Shown here in pieces: positions 2,570 through 56,236 of a stretch of DNA of 64,000 nucleotides. How positions within the stretch are numbered: the first letter of the stretch is position 1; each line of letters opens with the position of its first letter. The notes beneath the pieces were generated by a model that ran no database searches, was not told where the DNA came from, and saw only the letters and a list, made by a program, of their open reading frames with translations. The translations under genes and the position numbers were made by a program. The stretch is taken from NCBI RefSeq assembly GCF_053078305.1, contig NZ_CP166879.1. The stretch is one strand, 5' to 3'.

Positions 2570-3490
2570 ATGGAATTAAAGGATTATTACGCCATCATGG
2601 GCGTGAAACCGACGGACGATCTCAAGACAATCAAGACCGCCTATCGTCGACTGGCCCGTAAATACCATCCTGATGTCAGCAAAGAACCGGATGCCGAAGC
2701 CCGCTTCAAAGAGGTCGCTGAAGCCTGGGAAGTGTTAAGTGATGAACAACGTCGCGCTGAGTATGATCAGATGTGGCAACATCGCAACGATCCGCAATTT
2801 AACCGTCAGTTCCACCATGGCGACGGTCAGAGTTTTAACGCCGAAGATTTTGACGATATCTTCTCGTCAATTTTCGGTCAGCATGCCCGCCAGAGCCGTC
2901 AACGCCCCGCCACACGCGGCCACGATATTGAAATCGAAGTGGCGGTATTCCTCGAAGAAACGCTTACTGAGCATAAGCGTACCATCAGCTATAACCTGCC
3001 GGTTTATAACGCCTTTGGCATGATCGAACAGGAAATCCCGAAAACGCTGAATGTGAAGATCCCGGCAGGCGTCGGCAATGGTCAACGTATCCGCCTGAAA
3101 GGCCAGGGGACGCCGGGCGAAAACGGCGGTCCAAATGGCGACCTGTGGCTGGTGATTCATATTGCGCCACATCCGCTGTTTGATATTGTCGGCCAGGATC
3201 TGGAAATTGTGGTGCCGGTTAGCCCGTGGGAAGCGGCGCTGGGTGCTAAAGTCACCGTTCCAACACTGAAAGAAAGCATTTTGCTGACTATCCCGCCTGG
3301 CAGCCAGGCCGGGCAACGATTGCGCGTTAAAGGCAAAGGTCTGGTGAGCAAAAAACAGACCGGCGATCTGTATGCGGTACTGAAAATCGTGATGCCGCCG
3401 AAACCGGATGAAAACACTGCCGCGCTGTGGCAGCAACTGGCAGACGCCCAGTCGTCTTTTGATCCACGTAAAGATTGGGGGAAAGCATAA
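2570..3490 (+). CDS. cbpA: curved-DNA-binding DnaJ-like co-chaperone CbpA
   Basis: 306-aa [38 protein letters not shown] (J domain with HPD motif). Confidence 0.95.
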
Positions 3491-33859: not shown

Positions 33860-33947
33860 GGAAGTGTGGCCGAGCGGTTGAAGGCACCGGTCTTGAAAAC
33901 CGGCGACCCGAAAGGGTTCCAGAGTTCGAATCTCTGCGCTTCCGCCA
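33860..33947 (+). tRNA. serT: tRNA-Ser (anticodon UGA), serT
   Basis: GGAAGTGTGGCCGAGCGGTTGAAGGCACCGGTCTTGAAAACCGGCGACCCGAAAGGGTTCCAGAGTTCGAATCTCTGCGCTTCCGCCA; long variable arm; CTTGAAA anticodon loop. Confidence 0.93.
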
Positions 33948-48782: not shown

Positions 48783-49136
48783 TTATCGTCGCCGGTTAAC
48801 TGCGGGTGGTTGCCCACGGTTGAGCCAGAGATAACAGCTGCCCCCGTCATCCGGAGAAACACGATCCACCCAGAACATCTCGCCGTTAATGGTCAGCGTG
48901 TCACCACGCCGCACAGCACGCACCGTATCCGTCCGCACAAATAATGACGGGCTGCTTCCTTCAATACGGACCCCGCCACCGGCAAAACCCAGCGACTCCG
49001 GATCGTCAAAAACCCCCTGAACTTCGCCGCCACGCTGTGCACCGGAGGTGAACTGCGCACGGATCCCCATCACTTCAACGATCGTACTGTCCACCCCGGC
49101 GAGGGCAGCATCAAAGGCATTCTGAAAATCACGCAT
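48783..49136 (-). CDS. FII: head-tail connector FII
   Basis: 117 aa ending DRVSPDDGGSCYLWLNRGQPPAVNRRR, lambda gpFII-like. Confidence 0.9.
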   Translation of the reverse strand: MRDFQNAFDAALAGVDSTIVEVMGIRAQFTSGAQRGGEVQGVFDDPESLGFAGGGVRIEGSSPSLFVRTDTVRAVRRGDTLTINGEMFWVDRVSPDDGGSCYLWLNRGQPPAVNRRR

Positions 49137-49512
49137 ATTCAGCCGTTCCGTGCTGTATCATGGCCGTTGCCAGTGATGATGGCACCAGAACACGCATACC
49201 CCGTAACGCCAGCTCAACGGGACGACCTGTCTCCGGGCAATACCCCATTACTTGCAGGCACTTCCGTACCCGGACGGCTTTAACATCATCCGGAGAATCC
49301 GTGTTGTTCAACTGCTCACCATCGTCTGTGTCATTTTGATCAGACCCGCTCTCATCAGAGTGCATAATGCCCTCCCGGGAAGCTGCAAGCTCCTCTTCCC
49401 ACTCAGACACACGCAGAGCAATATCCGCAGCACTCCCCGACATATCCACCTCGCGCCCCAGCAGACCAGCCAGTTGACGAAGACGATTCAGGTTTTCTTC
49501 TTTTGTTGCCAT
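49129..49512 (-). CDS. FI: DNA-packaging protein FI (positional assignment)
   Basis: 127 aa from MATKEENLNRLRQLAGLLGREVDM with GGGGG SD; lies between E and FII; sequence is divergent from what I recall of lambda FI. Confidence 0.6.
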   Translation of the reverse strand: MATKEENLNRLRQLAGLLGREVDMSGSAADIALRVSEWEEELAASREGIMHSDESGSDQNDTDDGEQLNNTDSPDDVKAVRVRKCLQVMGYCPETGRPVELALRGMRVLVPSSLATAMIQHGTAEYA

Positions 49513-49563
49513 CTCAGCCCCCTGTGAAAAAAGACACGGGGGCATTTCGCCCCCGCTCCCGGA

Positions 49564-50592
49564 TTATTTCACCTGTACCACCACAAACTCATCCGGATCC
49601 GGCAGCACCATCAGCGGCGCGGACTGCGTCATGGTGAATTCACGGGCCGGATCGCCCACGGTCATCCAGTGTTTCGGATAACGGGAAGAGGCCACCACAC
49701 CTTCGGACAACGCCTGCGCATCCTGAATGGCACCATAGCAACGGATGCCCTCCGCTGACGTATTTCCCAGGACCAGCGTGCCCTCCGGCAGATAACGTTT
49801 TTCGGTACCGTCCTCTGCCACATAAGACGTTTTCGCCACCACAATGGCCAGATCGCCGTAATACCCCTTGAAGGACACCACTGCGCCCAGATCTTTCACT
49901 GCCGTTTCGAGTTGTGAATTTGAGCCGCGACGGGTATCCAGTTTTTCGCGGAACAGCTTAAAGCCATTCAGCAGACGCCAGACCGTACCGTCCATAATGG
50001 CGATATTCACAAGACCGCTGGCCTGATCGCAGTAGAGGTCAATATCATGCGTCGGATCAAACGTATCACGGTCCTGCTCAGACCATTTTTTACCGTCAGC
50101 CTGCTCAATGTTATTTCCTTCAGAGCGCCCGAAATCCACCTCGACAGTATCAAACTGCTCCCCTTCCATGGTGTATTTGCCATACAGCACGGCATTCACC
50201 GCCTGCATTTCCTCCACCTGGACAATGGCATGCTCTTCCTGTTTGAGGTTATCAGTGATGATACGCAGACGACGGTAGGCCGGGTCGTTCAGTTGCGCCG
50301 GATCTTCACCGGGAAGGCGCTCCACCGCCTGCTGGTAATTAAATTCGTGTTTCGGCTTGACGTAGCCCGGACGCAACACGCGGGTTTCACCACCACGATG
50401 ACGCAGCACTTTTCCTTCAACAACCGGGGAGACATAGGCTGCCACCGGCGTTTTTCCGGTAATTTTGTCCAGCATCACCTCTTCGGTGTGGAAATTCACC
50501 GTACGGCGGAAAAACAGTTCCAGAAACAGCGCACGAAATTTCACTTTTTGTTCGGTATAACCGAGTAACTGGCGGGTCGTAAACAATCCCAT
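49564..50592 (-). CDS. E: major capsid protein E
   Basis: 342 aa MGLFTTRQLLGYTEQKVKFRALFLELFFR..., lambda gpE-like. Confidence 0.95.
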   Translation of the reverse strand: MGLFTTRQLLGYTEQKVKFRALFLELFFRRTVNFHTEEVMLDKITGKTPVAAYVSPVVEGKVLRHRGGETRVLRPGYVKPKHEFNYQQAVERLPGEDPAQLNDPAYRRLRIITDNLKQEEHAIVQVEEMQAVNAVLYGKYTMEGEQFDTVEVDFGRSEGNNIEQADGKKWSEQDRDTFDPTHDIDLYCDQASGLVNIAIMDGTVWRLLNGFKLFREKLDTRRGSNSQLETAVKDLGAVVSFKGYYGDLAIVVAKTSYVAEDGTEKRYLPEGTLVLGNTSAEGIRCYGAIQDAQALSEGVVASSRYPKHWMTVGDPAREFTMTQSAPLMVLPDPDEFVVVQVK

Positions 50593-50649
50593 AAATCAGT
50601 TCCTTTCATTCAGAAATCAGTCAGGCCAACGCGGTGGCCTGATAACGTG

Positions 50650-50997
50650 TTACGGCAGCGCCGCGTGACTCAGGGCTGTGCCGACAAAGGCGTTGGCCTT
50701 TTTGTGTTCATCCACACTTTCAGGCCAGCGGATTGCCTCCGTCGCAAAGGTCCCCGACTTGTAATACGTCAGCACCGTCTCTGTGCCTTCAAGCGGCAGT
50801 ACCAGTATGCCAGCCGCACTACCGGCTTTCTGTCCGTCCCAGACCACCAGTTTCCCGCTGGCTTCATCCAGCATCAGGGGCGTCAGTGCCGGTGTTGCCT
50901 GAGAAATCCCGCTGCTGCCTGTGGCGGTATGAGCCGGATCATTACCGGCAAAAATACGTACTTCTGCACGTTGTTCAGTGATGGTTTTCGTTACCAT
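50650..50997 (-). CDS. D: head decoration protein D
   Basis: 115 aa containing GNDPAHTATGSSG and YYKSGTF, lambda gpD-like. Confidence 0.9.
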   Translation of the reverse strand: MVTKTITEQRAEVRIFAGNDPAHTATGSSGISQATPALTPLMLDEASGKLVVWDGQKAGSAAGILVLPLEGTETVLTYYKSGTFATEAIRWPESVDEHKKANAFVGTALSHAALP

Positions 50998-51033
50998 ATT
51001 GTAAAAACCTCATATTGATGGTCAGCACTGACT

Positions 51034-52539
51034 TCATGGCATGGCCATGAGCATTTTCACGTCCGCATCACCGTCTGCCGACGTCTGTGACACGCCACCC
51101 TGCACGGCTGCCGGTGAATGGTTCGCCATGATGCGTTCAAACATGGCGGTTGTGGATGCAGAAACCGGTTCTGCTTTATCCGGCGATGAGGACAGAATGT
51201 CGCGGGCAGCCTCCACCGTCATTCCGGGAAACGCCGCCAGTTTTTCAGCCTGCGCCTCAGCCCCTTTTGCCTCATCCAGAGCCATAATCTGATCACGGAG
51301 TGAGGGTCCGGCATCCGCCTGCGGTGAAGCCGCCAGGATCGGGCGGGCTTTTTCCACCGTCATATCCGGCATCGCCGCCAGCGTTGCCGCCAGTTGTTCA
51401 CGACCTTTAGCTTCTTCACACGCCATAATGCGATCGGCTTCACTCTGCGCGGATGCCACCGGCTGCTGCGGTGCTGCCGCGGCCAGAATCGCCCGGGCCT
51501 GTTCAACGCTCATGCCCTGTTGTCCTGCCAGCATCGTGGCAAGCTGTTCACGTCCTTTCGCTTCCTGACACGTCAGGATCCCCATCACTCGCTGGTTCTC
51601 CTGCGCGGCGGCTTCCGTTGCAGTTAATTGCGGCATAGTGCCTCCTGTATCATGTGTGTTCAGCGCCGCAGCCATCACGCTGATGGCATCCGACGCATTG
51701 ATTAATTCATCCGCCAGCCCGGCCTCAATACCGGACTGACCTTCAAAAACGGCAGCCTCTGTCCCCGTGACAGCTTCCACAGACAGCCCCGTATACATCG
51801 CCACTTTTTCGGCAAACATCCGGTGCGCCGCATCAATCCGCTGCTGCATGTCCTGGCGAACCTCTGACGGCAACGCTTCAAACTGATTGCCATCCACCTT
51901 ATGCGCCCCGGCATAAATCAGCGTGATATCCACTCCGGCCTGCGCCAGATGACCGGCATAGCTGACATGGCCCATCATCACGCCAATGGAGCCGATACGG
52001 GATGTCTGGGTAACCAGCCGTCGGGAGCAGGCCGACGCCAGCAGCATGGCCGCAGAACAGGCCGTGTCATTACACAGTGCCCAGACCGGCTTCTGCTGCC
52101 GGAGGCGGTAAATCATGTCAGCGCAGTCAAACGCACCGGCGGCCTGCCCGCCCGGACTGTCAATATCCAGCAGTACGCCCCGGACAGAGGTGTCCGCCAT
52201 TGCCTGCTGAAGACAGGCAACAATGCCGTCATAGCCTGTCATTCCGGAAAATGGCCGCATACCACCCAGCCGGTGCACCAGCGTGCCGGTCACCGGCAGT
52301 ACCGCAATACCGTTCACCACCCGGTAAACACGGGCCGGTCGTTTACCTCCGGCCATGTACTCGTCCGTTTCAGCCAGCATCCCGGGAGCATCAAGCTGTA
52401 CCTGCTGTTGTGGTAACGAAAGACTTGCTGCCCCCATCTCGCGCCCCAGCGCGCAAAAGAAAACCCGCGCATAGGCGGGCTCCAGAAGCAGCGGTTCATT
52501 GAATGCTGCGGCAATAATGTGTGAAAGATTACGTCTCAC
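51034..52539 (-). CDS. C: prohead protease C (S49/ClpP-like) with nested Nu3-type scaffold region
   Basis: 501 aa; NEPLLLEPAYARVFFCAL N-terminus as in lambda gpC; C-terminal third carries three tandem repeats of about 40 aa. Confidence 0.9.
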   Translation of the reverse strand: MRRNLSHIIAAAFNEPLLLEPAYARVFFCALGREMGAASLSLPQQQVQLDAPGMLAETDEYMAGGKRPARVYRVVNGIAVLPVTGTLVHRLGGMRPFSGMTGYDGIVACLQQAMADTSVRGVLLDIDSPGGQAAGAFDCADMIYRLRQQKPVWALCNDTACSAAMLLASACSRRLVTQTSRIGSIGVMMGHVSYAGHLAQAGVDITLIYAGAHKVDGNQFEALPSEVRQDMQQRIDAAHRMFAEKVAMYTGLSVEAVTGTEAAVFEGQSGIEAGLADELINASDAISVMAAALNTHDTGGTMPQLTATEAAAQENQRVMGILTCQEAKGREQLATMLAGQQGMSVEQARAILAAAAPQQPVASAQSEADRIMACEEAKGREQLAATLAAMPDMTVEKARPILAASPQADAGPSLRDQIMALDEAKGAEAQAEKLAAFPGMTVEAARDILSSSPDKAEPVSASTTAMFERIMANHSPAAVQGGVSQTSADGDADVKMLMAMP

Positions 52540-54121
52540 GTGGTGTTGTCTCCTCTTCCGGCCTGCGGCTCTCCGCTATCTGCTGCTGATACGCCTGCGC
52601 TATCCACACCGGACGTGAGAGTCCGGCTTTTTCCCGCTCTGCGGATTCCCTGACCTGCTGGCGGAAAATGTCCTGATAATCCTCACCCATCAGCGCCAGC
52701 TCTTTCTCATACGTGCTCAGTCCGGAATCAATACGCATCACCGATTCCTGGACCTCCTTGAGCCCGTCAATGGCCATTCTTCCGGCACCAATCCACTCTG
52801 CCCGTGACCAGGCTGATCGCGCCTGATAAAAATCAAAACGTGCCCGTGGCGGACGGATAATCCCCCGAAGAAGTGCCTCTTCCAGCCAGCAGGAAAACAT
52901 CTGCGTGGCCAGCCGGGCCGCAATAAATTTTCGTCGTCCCATAAAATAGCGCCACGACTCATTGGCAGAGGCGCGGGCACTTGAATAACTGACCTTCGAG
53001 TAATCACGGGACAACTGTTCGTAGGAAACGCCAAGACCGGCGGCGATATACCGCAGCAGCGCCTGTTCAAGCGCCGAAAATCCATTGTCTGAATCCTGCG
53101 CGGTCTGCAGTTTCAGATCATCACCGGGGAAAAGGTGCGGAATTTTGACACCACCCAGCGTCACGTGATTCGTGTCATACCAGCTGGAGAACTTCTCCAG
53201 AATATTAATGAGCGGATTATCCTGCTGACCCTGTGGTGCCCCCGCGATATATTCAAAGGCCTTTTCGGTATCAAGTTCACTTTCAATCGTCGCTGCATAC
53301 ATCGCCTTCACTATGGCCGACTGAAGCTGTGTTGCCTGCAGGGAATCGAGCATCTTCAGCCGTTCCATGACGCTGTAAAACTGATTGGCCCCACGGGTCT
53401 GCCCGTCCTCCACCGGCTCGAAAATATGCAGCATGGCCGGACGCCCGGTGGGAAGTTCACGCGGGATCCGTTCCCATCGTCCACTTCCGGAGAACGGAAA
53501 ATCATCCTCACAGATATGGTACGCAACGGCACGGCCATATCGATCGACCTCCACACCGGCACGCAGAAAACGGTTCCCCATACCGTGTCCTGGCGTGTCC
53601 ACCCGTTTCGGACTCACGGCTTTAAAACGCGTGCGGAATAACTGCGTGGTTTCCGTATCCCAGACCGGCTGCACAAAGATTTCGCCGTTAAAGGCATGAA
53701 CGCCCACACCTTCACGGATAAATTCCGTGAACGTGCGTTTCCCTTCCACGTCGATCTCGCCAAACATCCCTTCTGCGTATTCCGACCAGGCCGCCTCCAC
53801 CTCATCGACAAAACTTTTTGCCGCAGTCTCCCGCATCCCCAGCCAGCGCCAGTTCGGACGGTAGCTGATAAGAAACATATGCCCGACAATATGATCCTTA
53901 TGCAGGGCCACCGCATTAGCCGCTATCCCGTTATTGCGTACCAGATCATCTGCACGGGCATTCCCCAGACGCAACGCGGGCAGCAGGGCCGCATCGGCAC
54001 TCTGCGCCGGTGGCAACCACTCCGCCATTTGCCCGCCAAATCCTGCACCGCCCCCGTGGTAGCTGAGACTCTCCCGAAGCGGAACGCCGTTCACATCAAT
54101 CAGGACAGGCGTTCGTTTCAT
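52529..54121 (-). CDS. B: portal protein B
   Basis: 530 aa, size and position as lambda gpB. Confidence 0.93.
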   Translation of the reverse strand: MKRTPVLIDVNGVPLRESLSYHGGGAGFGGQMAEWLPPAQSADAALLPALRLGNARADDLVRNNGIAANAVALHKDHIVGHMFLISYRPNWRWLGMRETAAKSFVDEVEAAWSEYAEGMFGEIDVEGKRTFTEFIREGVGVHAFNGEIFVQPVWDTETTQLFRTRFKAVSPKRVDTPGHGMGNRFLRAGVEVDRYGRAVAYHICEDDFPFSGSGRWERIPRELPTGRPAMLHIFEPVEDGQTRGANQFYSVMERLKMLDSLQATQLQSAIVKAMYAATIESELDTEKAFEYIAGAPQGQQDNPLINILEKFSSWYDTNHVTLGGVKIPHLFPGDDLKLQTAQDSDNGFSALEQALLRYIAAGLGVSYEQLSRDYSKVSYSSARASANESWRYFMGRRKFIAARLATQMFSCWLEEALLRGIIRPPRARFDFYQARSAWSRAEWIGAGRMAIDGLKEVQESVMRIDSGLSTYEKELALMGEDYQDIFRQQVRESAEREKAGLSRPVWIAQAYQQQIAESRRPEEETTPRET

Positions 54122-54324
54122 AACCTCACTCCCAGCGGACGACGGCGACGGCGGGTTGTCCCCAGTACCGACTCCGCATCATTGATCGCACGGTTAAGCT
54201 CATCCAGAGAAGCCGCCGTATATTCAATTCTGCGACCATCTTTCTGGACAGACACCACCCGTTTACCGGTTAATAAATCAAGGCGCGCCTGACGCAGCGC
54301 CTGCAGTTCAGCGACTGTAACCAT
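54118..54324 (-). CDS. W: head-tail joining protein W
   Basis: 68 aa MVTVAELQALRQARLDLLTGKRVVSVQKDGRRIEYTAASLDEL. Confidence 0.9.
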   Translation of the reverse strand: MVTVAELQALRQARLDLLTGKRVVSVQKDGRRIEYTAASLDELNRAINDAESVLGTTRRRRRPLGVRL

Positions 54325-56236
54325 TCACTCCTCCGGACAGCTTCGCTGCCAGTTCTTTCAGGGTTGGCCGGGTCGTCTCTTCTTCCCGGGATTTTGCCAG
54401 TACAGCCAGATCAAGCTGCCAGCGTTGCACGGACACACGTAATGCCGCGTAGGCATACACCAGGCAGTCCAGCGCTTCGTTACGCCGCTTTTTGTTATCC
54501 CACAGCAGACGCATCTTTCCTTTTTCCCACTTCTCCACCAGTTCTTCCGCCACCAGTTGCTGCGCCTCTGTCTGCGAAAAAATCTCCGGATCATCAGGAA
54601 AACGGATGGCATACGACGTGGCTTCATCCGCAGGCGTGGGATCGGCTTTCATACGGGCATAGAGAATTTCTTTTGCGGTGTCTGTCCCCACTTCACACAG
54701 ATACACGCCCCGCTGATTGCGGGTTTTTGGCATGGTGATCACCGGCTTGCCATAGACAGATGCGCCTTTTACCGGCAGCACCCGGAAAACACCGTGTTTT
54801 TTTGATCTCTGATAAACAATTTCACCATCGATCCCCCCGGTGTCCCAGCAGACACGGGAAATGGTCATTTCGGTACCGTCTGCATGGCGGTATTTTTTGT
54901 TGATCGCCGCATCCACACGTAACAGCGTCTCTTCCTCATCAGGACGCCCCATAATGATGATTTTATCCACCAGAAAGGCTTCCTCTCCCGGAGCCCATCC
55001 CCAGACATACATCTCAAAACGGTTACGCTGCGAGTCAATGCCCGCCGTCAGATAAACCACCCGGGCAGGCACCGCTGCCGTGTAATGCACGACCTTATCC
55101 ATCAGCACCTGGTGATCGAGTTTTTCGCCCACGGCCTCTTCCCAGGTCTCGCCCAGCGTGGTGTTCACAAAAGTTTTCAGGCCGTTGGGATCTTTCAGTG
55201 CATCCAGCCAGTCATAGACTATCTGTACCCAGGTGGTGAACGGACTGTACGCCGTCCAGATATGGAAAGTGATGGAGCGCGGCGGCGGAATTTCATTACC
55301 CGCAGCGCTGAAAAACGTCAGGCCGTCACGGGTCCACATGCCCGTGTTTTCACAGATCCACCGCCCGTTGCTCTGGTCAAGCTCAGACTGATGGATCACG
55401 CAGCCATGATGTTCACAGAGATAGAAAACGCTTTCGGGGCTGTCCTTCTCCCATTTAAGGCCAAAAGGCGTGGACTCATCGCCAAATTTCAGATACTGCT
55501 CCTCCCCACAGTGCGGGCAGGGCACATAAAAACGCATGAAATGCGCCGACTCGTTGGCCGCTTTTTCGATCTGGCAGGAGCCTTTTATTTTTGGCGTCGA
55601 GCCGCGAATGGATTTTGGCCATACCGAGCCCTCAATACGCTTATCCCCCAGCAGGGTTGGCGAGCCCTCTTTTTCGACATCCGGCTCGAACGAGGAAAGT
55701 TCGTCATAGCAGACCACGTCCACGGATTTTTCACGGTAGTTTTTTGCTGCCGCACCACCCAGGCACCAGAAGCCCACCCCCGATGAAAAGCGTTTCAGCG
55801 TGAGAGTATTGTCACGATGTTTACGACCCAGCCACGGGGAAAGATCTTTCAGGCATGGCACGTCCCGAATCGTCGCCTCCACGTGAGACTTCATAAAATC
55901 TTCAGCGGCAGAATCCGTGGGCTGAAAAAGCAGACTGTTTCGGGATTTATGCTCAATAAAATACCCGACCACCCCCAGCAACATCTTTGTATAGCCAACA
56001 CGGGCAGATTTAATCAGATTAACAGTGCGGATCTGATCATTCCCCATGCTGTTCATGATGGCGATCTGGAATGGCAGCGTTTTCCATTCTCCGTCACCGT
56101 ATGAGGAGTCTTTAGGCAAATAATAATTTTGATCAGCCCATTCAACTGCCGTCATCGGTACAACTCTGACCAGAGGCTGCAGCGCAACCGAAACGGCAGC
56201 CATCATATTATTCAGTTGTTGCTCTGATATATTCAT
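54308..56236 (-). CDS. A: terminase large subunit A
   Basis: 642 aa from MNISEQQLNN...; contains TAVEWAD.NYYLPK, GSTPK and CPHCGEEQYLKFGD motifs; track ORF extends 19 codons upstream. Confidence 0.94.
   Translation of the reverse strand: MNISEQQLNNMMAAVSVALQPLVRVVPMTAVEWADQNYYLPKDSSYGDGEWKTLPFQIAIMNSMGNDQIRTVNLIKSARVGYTKMLLGVVGYFIEHKSRNSLLFQPTDSAAEDFMKSHVEATIRDVPCLKDLSPWLGRKHRDNTLTLKRFSSGVGFWCLGGAAAKNYREKSVDVVCYDELSSFEPDVEKEGSPTLLGDKRIEGSVWPKSIRGSTPKIKGSCQIEKAANESAHFMRFYVPCPHCGEEQYLKFGDESTPFGLKWEKDSPESVFYLCEHHGCVIHQSELDQSNGRWICENTGMWTRDGLTFFSAAGNEIPPPRSITFHIWTAYSPFTTWVQIVYDWLDALKDPNGLKTFVNTTLGETWEEAVGEKLDHQVLMDKVVHYTAAVPARVVYLTAGIDSQRNRFEMYVWGWAPGEEAFLVDKIIIMGRPDEEETLLRVDAAINKKYRHADGTEMTISRVCWDTGGIDGEIVYQRSKKHGVFRVLPVKGASVYGKPVITMPKTRNQRGVYLCEVGTDTAKEILYARMKADPTPADEATSYAIRFPDDPEIFSQTEAQQLVAEELVEKWEKGKMRLLWDNKKRRNEALDCLVYAYAALRVSVQRWQLDLAVLAKSREEETTRPTLKELAAKLSGGVNGYSR

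What the first reader, a model, noticed from the sequence alone, without database searches (positions are those of the whole stretch)
51130..51560. Triplicated repeat module in the C-terminal scaffold part of prohead protease C
The C-terminal third of gpC contains three tandem copies of a module of about 40 aa (EAKGREQLATMLAGQQGMSVEQARAILAA / EAKGREQLAATLAAMPDMTVEKARPILAA / EAKGAEAQAEKLAAFPGMTVEAARDILSS); I recall only one such module in lambda C/Nu3. Tandem expansion in a scaffold domain may change scaffold stoichiometry or be a recent recombination product.
Basis: partly seen in the sequence, partly recalled or inferred. Interest (0 to 1): 0.35.

Follow-up and report, generated by a model that had tools for sequence, protein, structure and literature searches.

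The report
Triple scaffold module of phage-21-type protease
The head protease/scaffold gene of this E. coli prophage really does carry three tandem copies of a small helical module that lambda has only once. This arrangement is old, is standard for phage-21-type head genes found in about a third of E. coli genomes, and was already annotated in phage 21 as "Tri boxes" of unknown function.

Summary
The gene at window 51034-52539 (minus strand, 501 aa) is an S49 prohead protease, a lambda gpC homologue. Its C-terminal 200 aa form a nested Nu3-like scaffold ORF. Residues 314-463 (window 51151-51600) are three tandem 47-53-aa modules. They align with z = 11-17 against shuffles and are 64-70% identical at DNA level. 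Lambda, N15, phi80 and 47 of 49 full-length cluster representatives have one module, so one copy is the family norm.

The triplication is neither new nor recent. The gene is 94% identical to phage 21 gene 5/6, whose GenBank record M81255 already marks "Tri1/Tri/Tri3 box" repeats. Synonymous sites between copies are saturated. Copies 2 and 3 group by position across E. coli and Salmonella (Gifsy-1). 1,811 of 5,426 complete E. coli genomes carry the copy-1/copy-2 stretch intact.

Additions from this work:
- Each module is predicted with confidence (pLDDT 89) as a three-helix mini-domain followed by a flexible linker, and each is under purifying selection.
- In-frame variants with about 2, 2.6 and 4 copies occur naturally, with microhomology at the breakpoints.
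- A separate E. coli lineage has four modules.

The most likely function is repeated binding units of the scaffold. This is inferred, not shown.

The parts
51034..52539 (-). Prohead protease / scaffold fusion gene (lambda C homologue; phage 21 gene 5 type), 501 aa, GTG start
   Evidence: ORF. Pfam PF01343 Peptidase_S49 E = 3e-35. PHROG 53 'head maturation protease' E = 2e-223. 94.2% nt identity to phage 21 gene 5. Lies between the portal gene (52529-54121) and the shp/D-like gene (50650-50997) and major capsid gene (49564-50592).
51661..52104 (-). S49 peptidase domain (aa 146-293). The Ser in the 'CSA' motif is Ser162, which aligns with lambda gpC Ser166.
   Evidence: Pfam hit coordinates; global alignment to lambda C. 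The catalytic role of Ser166 is recalled from the literature and was not tested here.
51642..51647 (-). Shine-Dalgarno AGGAGG for the nested scaffold ORF
   Evidence: It is the only 6/6 AGGAGG match upstream of an in-frame start codon between aa 200 and 330. The same element is annotated as a putative RBS of gene 6 in phage 21.
51034..51636 (-). Nested in-frame scaffold ORF (Nu3 / phage 21 gp6 homologue), 200 aa, ATG at 51634-51636 (gpC residue 302)
   Evidence: Corresponds to the annotated phage 21 gene 6. Matches PHROG 8399 'head scaffolding protein' and 8940 'capsid assembly protein', each in 3 stretches. Expression was not tested.
51442..51600 (-). Module 1 (aa 314-366), ENQRVMGILTCQEAKGREQLATMLAGQQGMSVEQARAILAAAAPQQPVASAQS. 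It is the likely counterpart of lambda's single module. It contains phage 21's 'Tri1 box' (maps to 51466-51569).
   Evidence: In the module tree, copy 1 groups with lambda's single module. omega = 0.10 against phage 21.
51301..51441 (-). Module 2 (aa 367-413), EADRIMACEEAKGREQLAATLAAMPDMTVEKARPILAASPQADAGPS. It contains phage 21's 'Tri box' (maps to 51319-51429).
   Evidence: AlphaFold2 on this module with a 37-sequence alignment gives pLDDT 89.3, helices at residues 2-7, 15-22 and 29-38, and a low-confidence linker. omega = 0.33. It is the site of the natural 57-, 147- and 150-nt in-frame deletions.
51151..51300 (-). Module 3 (aa 414-463), LRDQIMALDEAKGAEAQAEKLAAFPGMTVEAARDILSSSPDKAEPVSAST. 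It contains phage 21's 'Tri3 box' (maps to 51175-51288). Its helix 3 and linker (51154-51273) are a divergent allele relative to phage 21.
   Evidence: omega = 0.18 but dS = 0.68, against ~0.1 in the rest of the gene. 67% nt identity in the 51154-51213 window.
51037..51150 (-). C-terminal tail (aa 464-501), including 'FERIMA' (aa 467-472; ERIMA = 51124-51138). This resembles the first helix of a module, and the 'LDRLM' that follows lambda's single module.
   Evidence: Alignments. AlphaFold2 predicts a helix here (residues 160-173 of the 200-aa model). The resemblance is not statistically significant alone.

Best explanation
The gene is the phage-21-type version of the lambda C/Nu3 head-assembly gene. 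An N-terminal S49 serine protease is fused to a C-terminal scaffold region. That region is probably also translated on its own from an internal start (M302, strong SD) as a 200-aa scaffolding protein. The scaffold region consists of three tandem ~38-residue three-helix mini-domains, each followed by a flexible Pro/Ala/Gln-rich linker, and then a 38-aa tail. Lambda-like relatives have one such mini-domain preceded by a ~50-aa low-complexity spacer. The array arose by ancient in-register duplication of the unit and has been kept by purifying selection. Proposed mechanism (inferred): each mini-domain is an independent contact unit of the scaffold. It would bind the inner face of the major capsid protein, or the portal or other scaffold chains. 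The shared C-terminus also brings the protease into the procapsid. Three or four units on flexible tethers would make each chain multivalent. After assembly the protease would cut the exposed linkers and the fragments would leave the shell. The identity and anatomy are shown (about 0.95 confidence). The binding and valency mechanism is inferred (about 0.45).
For: Identity:
- S49 domain; PHROG head maturation protease and scaffolding families.
- 94% nt identity to phage 21 genes 5/6, with the same Tri boxes, RBS and nested gene annotated there.
- The gene order portal, C, shp, major capsid protein is the same as in phage 21.

Repeats are real.

The module is a folding unit:
- AlphaFold2 gives pLDDT 89.3 and pTM 0.67 for one module, with three helices and a disordered linker.
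- The 200-aa model has separate helical units joined by low-confidence linkers.

Selection:
- omega is 0.10, 0.33 and 0.18 for modules 1-3 against phage 21, the same range as the protease domain at 0.20.
- For paralogous copies 1 and 2, dS > 2 and omega is about 0.09.

Age: copies group by position across E. coli phage 21 type and Salmonella/Gifsy-1 type.

The module belongs to this protein family:
- 1,487 cluster representatives carry it. 62 of the best 150 have a recognisable S49 domain, and most of the rest are short entries of about 40-290 aa.
- Of ten further hits checked against Pfam, seven carry the S49 domain and three short ones match no family.

Extra units are functional rather than junk:
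- All 19 phage-collection records that cover most of the gene span 1,500-1,506 nt, the length of the three-copy gene.
- An independent lineage keeps four copies in ~105 complete genomes.

Lambda literature lists Nu3-E, Nu3-B, Nu3-C and Nu3-Nu3 interactions (PMC3224144).
Against: - No experiment or structure links this module to any partner.
- The divergent module-3 allele reassorts freely with alleles of a variable capsid-protein patch in 80 related loci, so there is no co-variation signal.
- A variant with module 2 half-deleted (482 aa) is very widespread in an otherwise intact head cluster, so three intact units may not be required.
- The internal start is supported only by sequence and by the phage 21 annotation, which itself says 'putative'.
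Confidence: 0.6

Rival explanations
1. The modules are self-association or portal-binding units, not capsid-protein-binding units. They would build the scaffold core or the portal-protease-scaffold initiator complex, and extra copies would change the oligomer or network geometry.
For: Lambda Nu3-Nu3, Nu3-B and C-Nu3 interactions are reported, and Nu3 is needed to incorporate the portal (PMC3224144). Module-3 alleles show no co-variation with capsid-protein alleles.
Against: Nothing here tells one partner from another. The same paper also reports a Nu3-E two-hybrid interaction.
Confidence: 0.25
2. The extra modules act mainly as a structured spacer or ruler, or as protease-cleavable filler. They would replace the ~50-aa low-complexity spacer of single-module phages, and only one module would do the specific binding.
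For: Lineages with 3 or 4 copies have only a 12-14-aa N-terminal spacer, against ~50 aa in single-copy phages. The 482-aa variant with a broken module 2 is widespread. In-frame 2-copy variants exist in intact-looking head clusters.
Against: All three modules are under purifying selection as strong as on the protease domain. The invariant motif columns (A, G, A, L, A of EAKG..A..LA...A) are kept in every copy across E. coli and Salmonella. A mere spacer would be expected to drift to low complexity.
Confidence: 0.1
3. The triplication is a recent recombination product or an assembly artefact specific to this prophage.
For: Tandem arrays can arise by unequal crossing-over. Rare recent events do exist in relatives: a 150-nt duplication giving 551 aa, and 147/150-nt deletions giving 451/452 aa, with 8-9-nt microhomology at the breakpoints.
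Against: Copies are only 64-70% identical in DNA and synonymous sites are saturated. The identical architecture is in phage 21 (isolated in the 1950s), Gifsy-1 and other phages in the collection, and 1,811 complete E. coli genomes carry the copy-1/copy-2 stretch intact.
Confidence: 0.01
4. The repeat is selected at DNA or RNA level. It would be a repeated cis element such as CII-binding sites, an antisense promoter or a structured RNA, and the protein repeat would be a by-product.
For: The OL657228 record marks two 'CII binding site' pattern matches in this region. A terminator-like hairpin lies on the opposite strand at 51330-51346.
Against: The CII pattern occurs in only one of the three copies. 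Conservation follows the protein pattern, with low omega and saturated synonymous sites. There are no Rfam hits. Promoter-like sites are no more frequent than in shuffled sequence.
Confidence: 0.02

Closest known systems
Phage 21 genes 5/6 (head-tail preconnector gp5 / scaffold gp6) with 'Tri1, Tri, Tri3 box' repeats, GenBank M81255 and OL657228
   Same: 94.2% nt identity over the whole gene. Same length (501 aa), same nested 200-aa ORF with the same RBS, and the same three repeats at the same positions.
   Different: The window carries a different allele of the helix 3 and linker of module 3 (AFPGMTVEAARDILSSSPDK, against ACPGMTVESARAVLAAGSGK in phage 21) and of a short stretch just before the nested start.
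Lambda gpC / gpNu3 (NC_001416), and N15 and phi80 gp5/gp6
   Same: S49 protease with ~60% identity over the first 300 aa. Same gene neighbourhood, an in-frame nested scaffold ORF, and the same module and C-terminal tail motif.
   Different: These have one module instead of three, and a ~50-aa T/S/A/Q-rich spacer before the module that is nearly absent here. The protein is 439-447 aa against 501 aa.
Salmonella phage Gifsy-1 gpC homologue (STM2605.Gifsy1)
   Same: Three modules in the same order. Copies group by position with those of the window.
   Different: Only ~71% nt identity over the part that megablast aligns, and ~60-65% aa identity for related Salmonella scaffold regions. 498 aa.
Four-module gpC of a second E. 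coli prophage lineage (e.g. WP_096934546.1, strain STEC309)
   Same: S49 protease plus a tandem module array, a short N-terminal spacer, and the same neighbouring genes.
   Different: 538 aa with four modules. In the module tree its copies 2-4 group with each other rather than with the window's copies 2 and 3, which suggests separate expansion or homogenisation. 73% identity in the protease domain.
Helix-loop-helix coat-binding domains of other scaffolding proteins (P22 gp8 C-terminus, phi29 gp7), and protease-scaffold fusions such as P2 gpO
   Same: A short helical element at the C-terminal end of a scaffold, and a protease and scaffold encoded in one gene (PMC3185693 and PMC8508860). This is an analogy of role only.
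   Different: No sequence or fold similarity was detected. Those scaffolds are not described as tandem arrays of the element.

Membership tests
Lambda C/Nu3-type prohead protease-scaffold gene | S49 (SppA-like) serine peptidase domain in the N-terminal two thirds | tested here: met
   Pfam PF01343 E = 3.1e-35 at aa 146-293. Ser162 aligns with lambda Ser166.
Lambda C/Nu3-type prohead protease-scaffold gene | Position between the portal gene and the decoration and major capsid genes of a lambda-type head operon | tested here: met
   Window ORFs are 52529-54121 (530 aa), 50650-50997 (115 aa) and 49564-50592 (342 aa). They are collinear with and mostly >90% identical to phage 21 gene 4, shp and gene 7. 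Related loci carry Pfam Phage_portal_2, HDPD and Phage_cap_E.
Lambda C/Nu3-type prohead protease-scaffold gene | In-frame internal translation start that yields a separate scaffolding protein sharing the C-terminus | tested here: inconclusive
   ATG at residue 302 has a perfect AGGAGG upstream and is annotated as gene 6 in phage 21. No expression data can be obtained with these tools.
Lambda C/Nu3-type prohead protease-scaffold gene | Conserved C-terminal module (..RIMxxxEAKGRExxAxxLAxxPGMTVxxAxxILAAAP..) followed by a tail with a DRLM-like motif | tested here: met
   The module profile matches three times at E of about 1e-23. The same profile matches lambda, N15, phi80, phiARM81ld and 569R10 once each.
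Lambda C/Nu3-type prohead protease-scaffold gene | Proteolytic activity on scaffold, portal and itself during procapsid maturation | not testable with these tools
   This is a biochemical property. Only the domain and the aligned serine are seen.
Phage 21 'Tri box' triplicated scaffold (gene 5/6 type) | Three tandem repeats in the gene 6 region at the positions annotated in M81255 | tested here: met
   The Tri1, Tri and Tri3 boxes map to window 51466-51569, 51319-51429 and 51175-51288. They coincide with the repeat family and the modules.
P22/phi29-type helix-loop-helix coat-binding scaffold domain | Structural similarity to the solved helix-loop-helix domains | tested here: not met
P22/phi29-type helix-loop-helix coat-binding scaffold domain | Direct binding to the major capsid protein | not testable with these tools
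   The only structure-prediction tool available here folds single chains, so no complex could be modelled. The allele co-variation test was negative.

The most novel reading that the evidence does not exclude
Module number may be a recurrently evolved, selectable 'valency dial' on a protease-scaffold fusion. Each three-helix mini-domain would be an autonomous contact unit. Enterobacterial lineages would have independently replaced a disordered spacer with extra units (1, then 3, then 4). The natural in-frame series of about 2, 2.6, 3 and 4 copies, generated by microhomology-mediated slippage, would alter how many capsid or portal subunits one scaffold chain bridges, and hence scaffold copy number per procapsid and assembly fidelity.
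Probability: 0.2. Interest if true: 0.45.

Novelty: already known. Interest (0 to 1): 0.22.

Why it matters
This mainly closes a lead. The triplication is genuine, but it is the long-annotated 'Tri box' feature of phage 21 head genes and is standard in a prophage head type carried by about one third of complete E. coli genomes.

What remains open is the function, which the phage 21 record lists as 'unknown'. The lambda-type scaffold is poorly understood structurally. A confidently predicted, independently folding module occurs naturally in 1, ~2, ~2.6, 3 and 4 copies. That series offers a ready-made way to test how scaffold valency affects procapsid assembly and how the protease is targeted.

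The work also exposes an annotation inconsistency about where lambda Nu3 starts.

Tried and rejected
1. Tandem Repeats Finder finds only an 11-nt micro-repeat. The copies are too diverged, so the repeat finder and protein profiles were needed.
2. Junction-specific 100-nt queries to count the 482-, 451- and 452-aa variants in E. coli genomes were uninformative. The tool joins the two half-matches of three-copy genes into one 'place'. They were replaced by a 147-nt query internal to the deletions.
4. A sequence search of the PDB with the scaffold ORF gave no relevant hit.
5. The co-variation test between the module-3 allele and a variable capsid-protein patch in 80 IMG/VR loci showed all combinations, so there is no signal.
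6. DNA- or RNA-level function was rejected: no Rfam hit, no excess of promoter-like sites, and CII-site pattern matches not shared by the copies.
7. Literature: the 1993 phage 21 head-gene paper, Medina et al. 2010 (gpC protease) and Chang et al. 2009 (P2 gpO) are not in the held library. What is said about them rests on GenBank annotations, citing papers or memory.
8. The first homologue search with the 200-aa query returned mostly fragments. The copy-number census relied instead on the exhaustive profile search and the full-length query.

Full report
**1. What is at the locus**

The finding lies in a 501-aa ORF on the minus strand, window 51034-52539, with a GTG start.
- The protein has a Pfam Peptidase_S49 domain at aa 146-293 (E = 3e-35). 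It matches PHROG 53 'head maturation protease' over its full length.
- It sits between a 530-aa ORF (52529-54121) on one side and a 115-aa ORF (50650-50997) and a 342-aa ORF (49564-50592) on the other. These are collinear with, and mostly more than 90% identical to, the portal, shp (decoration) and major capsid genes of phage 21.
- The gene itself is 94.2% identical in DNA to phage 21 gene 5, and 97% identical to several PhiR12/PhiR5 phage records.
- The first 300 residues are ~60% identical to lambda gpC. The serine of the CSA motif (Ser162) aligns with lambda Ser166.
- An in-frame ATG at residue 302 (window 51634-51636) is preceded by a perfect AGGAGG (51642-51647). This is the only perfect match among internal start candidates between aa 200 and 330. 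It corresponds to the annotated nested gene 6, the 200-aa scaffold of phage 21.

**2. The observation**

The three quoted stretches are present.
- The full repeat units are aa 314-366, 367-413 and 414-463, which is window 51442-51600, 51301-51441 and 51151-51300.
- DNA repeats are detectable at 64-70% identity with spacing 141/150 nt.
- Protein copies align with scores of 74-109, against about 24-25 +/- 4.5-4.9 for shuffles (z = 11-17; 0 of 2,000 shuffles reach them).

**3. Already annotated**

Mapped onto the window they fall at 51466-51569, 51319-51429 and 51175-51288, on the cores of the three modules. The triplication has therefore been on record since that sequence was deposited. I could not read the accompanying paper.

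**4. Is three copies the family norm?**

I built a 37-sequence profile of the module and ran it exhaustively against 1.84 billion cluster representatives.
- 1,487 proteins carry the module at E <= 1e-3.
- Among the best 150, 135 have one copy, 12 have two and 3 have three.
- Among the 49 that are full-length S49 proteins of at least 380 aa, 47 have one copy, one has two and one has three.

Copy number in named phages:

| Phage | Protein length (aa) | Modules |
|---|---|---|
| lambda | 439 | 1 |
| N15 | 447 | 1 |
| phi80 | 447 | 1 |
| Aeromonas phiARM81ld | 440 | 1 |
| vB_EcoM-569R10 | 435 | 1 |
| phage 21 | 501 | 3 |
| Salmonella Gifsy-1 | 498 | 3 |

Within the phage-21 head type, however, three copies is the standard.
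- The gene is found in 2,031 of 5,426 complete E. coli genomes.
- A 147-nt probe spanning the module 1/2 boundary and module 2 is intact in 1,811 of the 1,860 genomes that match it.
- All 80 best IMG/VR loci match the full 200-aa scaffold region.
- All 19 phage-collection records that cover most of the gene span 1,500-1,506 nt, the length of the three-copy gene.
- Three-copy forms also occur in Providencia.

**5. Age and selection**

- Between the window and phage 21, omega is 0.10, 0.33 and 0.18 for modules 1-3. This is the same range as the protease domain (0.20).
- Between paralogous copies 1 and 2, dS exceeds 2 (saturated) and omega is about 0.09. Comparisons with copy 3 could not be computed because synonymous differences exceeded the range of the correction.
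- A neighbour-joining tree of modules has only 45 columns, so resolution is low. It groups copy 1 of all multi-copy lineages with the single module of lambda-like phages. It groups copies 2 and 3 by position across E. coli and Salmonella.
- The triplication therefore predates the split of those phage lineages. 'Recent recombination product' is rejected.

**6. Ongoing small-scale dynamics**

Full-length homologues in E. coli show in-frame length variants confined to the array.

| Length (aa) | Change | Breakpoint | Notes |
|---|---|---|---|
| 482 | 57-nt deletion removing helices 2-3 of module 2 | CTGGCGGC microhomology | This exact protein is indexed in 3,592 blocks of the assembly collection, in an intact head cluster |
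| 451 | 150-nt in-register deletion fusing modules 1 and 2 | CGTGAACA | Neighbouring head genes intact |
| 452 | 147-nt in-register deletion fusing modules 1 and 2 | CACCGCAG | One example is in a decayed O157:H7 prophage with a truncated capsid gene |
| 472 | Partial deletion | not determined | |
| 551 | 150-nt tandem duplication giving a fourth, chimeric module | duplicated unit starts at GAGATGAC (not characterised further) | The contig has an N at the junction, so caution is needed |

In complete genomes these variants are a small minority. About 49 of the 1,860 genomes that match the probe have no intact copy of the probed segment.

**7. A separate four-module lineage**

A 538-aa gpC homologue (for example WP_096934546.1, strain STEC309) is 73% identical to the window protein in the protease domain.
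- It has four modules that are 67-76% identical in DNA and 69-86% identical in protein.
- It occurs in about 105 complete E. coli genomes.
- In the module tree its copies 2-4 group with each other, which suggests independent expansion or homogenisation.
- Two distant proteins, P0141 and P0104, each have two modules that pair with each other.
- Expansion of this module has therefore probably happened more than once.

**8. Anatomy of the module**

- AlphaFold2 on the 200-aa scaffold ORF gives modest confidence (pLDDT 65). It shows separate helical units joined by low-confidence linkers.
- A single module with the 37-sequence alignment is predicted with high confidence (pLDDT 89.3, pTM 0.67). It forms three short helices at residues 2-7, 15-22 and 29-38, followed by a low-confidence 9-residue linker.
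- No Pfam or NCBIfam model covers the module.
- Single-copy phages have a ~50-aa T/S/A/Q-rich spacer between the internal start and the module. The 3- and 4-copy lineages have only 12-14 residues there.
- The tail after the last module begins with a 'DRLM/ERIMA' helix that resembles the first helix of modules 2 and 3. Lambda shows the same feature after its single module.
- This suggests the duplicated unit was helix 2, helix 3, linker and the next helix 1. That is inference only, because the five-residue match is not significant alone.

**9. How it probably works**

Shown: the gene is a protease-scaffold fusion whose scaffold part consists of three conserved, separately folding helical mini-domains on flexible tethers.

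Inferred: each mini-domain is a contact unit for the capsid protein, the portal or other scaffold chains. This inference rests on three points.
- The scaffold region shared by C and Nu3 is what both proteins have in common.
- Lambda Nu3 is reported to interact with E, B, C and itself (PMC3224144).
- Other scaffolds use short helical C-terminal elements to bind coat protein (PMC3185693).

Multiple units would make each chain multivalent, and exposed linkers would be natural cleavage points for scaffold removal.

I could not identify the partner.
- Fold searches were empty.
- A co-variation test between the two alleles of module 3 and three alleles of a variable capsid-protein patch showed free reassortment.
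- The wide occurrence of the 482-aa variant argues that three intact units are not strictly required, or that many of those prophages are not under selection for head assembly.

**10. Other strand and RNA level**

- Antisense ORFs in the region are mechanical.
- There is no Rfam hit in 49000-54500.
- Promoter-like sites are no more frequent than in shuffles.
- The 'CII binding site' features in OL657228 are pattern matches that are not shared by the copies.

**11. Verdict**

It is an ancient, conserved and already annotated characteristic of phage-21-type head genes. It is not a recent event and not peculiar to this window.

- Novelty: already known.
- Interest is low to modest. What remains is the unknown function of the module and the natural copy-number series, which could be used to test scaffold valency.

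Noticed in passing
L003 (lambda NC_001416) locus 2633-3238, compared with window 51634-51647; L011 (N15) 1357-1770; L012 (phi80) 1318-1731: Lambda C has a perfect AGGAGG before in-frame Met309 (MTKETQ...). This aligns with the phage 21 gp6 / window Met302 start. RefSeq annotates Nu3 from Met239 (201 aa, weak SD), while N15 and phi80 annotate a 137-aa gp6 at the Met309-equivalent position. The start of lambda Nu3 is therefore annotated inconsistently between records.
   Followed up: partly
L096 927-2543 (E. coli STEC309, WP_096934546.1): A second E. coli prophage lineage has a 538-aa gpC homologue with four tandem modules (67-76% nt identity between copies). It is present in about 105 of 5,426 complete genomes. 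Many short-read database entries of this lineage are 'partial', ending in the array.
   Followed up: partly
window 51154-51273 (module 3, helix 3 plus linker): This is a local divergent patch relative to phage 21 (67% nt identity in the worst 60-nt window; dS 0.68 against ~0.1 in the rest of the gene). Two alleles (AFPGMTVEAARDILSSSPDK and ACPGMTVENARAVLAAGSGK) segregate among 80 related IMG/VR loci.
   Followed up: yes
window 50074-50133 (major capsid protein aa ~154-173): A hypervariable patch in the major capsid gene (58% nt identity to phage 21) has at least three alleles (SEGNNIEQADGKKWSEQ, STKNNI[IT]QGSGKEWSKQ, SV[GE]NNITQAGGTEWSAQ). They reassort freely with the module-3 alleles. The reason for the variability is unknown.
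   Followed up: partly
L004 3001-4449 (482-aa variant); L005, L007 (451/452 aa); L009 (551 aa): Natural in-frame deletions and a duplication are confined to the module array, with 8-9-nt microhomology at the deletion breakpoints. The 482-aa protein (module 2 half-deleted) is indexed in 3,592 blocks of the assembly collection, yet only about 49 complete genomes lack an intact copy of the probed segment. The 551-aa contig has an N at the duplication junction.
   Followed up: partly
proteins P0321, P0323, P0113, P0123, P0128: These are gpC homologues fused in frame to tail proteins (tail fibre-like sequence, tail protein L, tail protein U, tape measure). They are presumably deletion products of decaying prophages. 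In the two phage-21-type cases (P0321, P0323) the breakpoint lies in or just after module 3; the module position in P0113 and P0123 suggests the same but was not checked.
   Followed up: no
window 33860-33947: A tRNA-Ser (anticodon UGA) gene lies next to the tail-fibre end of the prophage, which seems to occupy roughly 34000 to beyond 64000 on the minus strand. It is the probable integration site.
   Followed up: no
window 50621-50642 (minus strand): A terminator-like hairpin with a T-rich tract lies between the decoration (shp) gene and the major capsid gene. N15 has an annotated putative rho-independent terminator at the same position.
   Followed up: no
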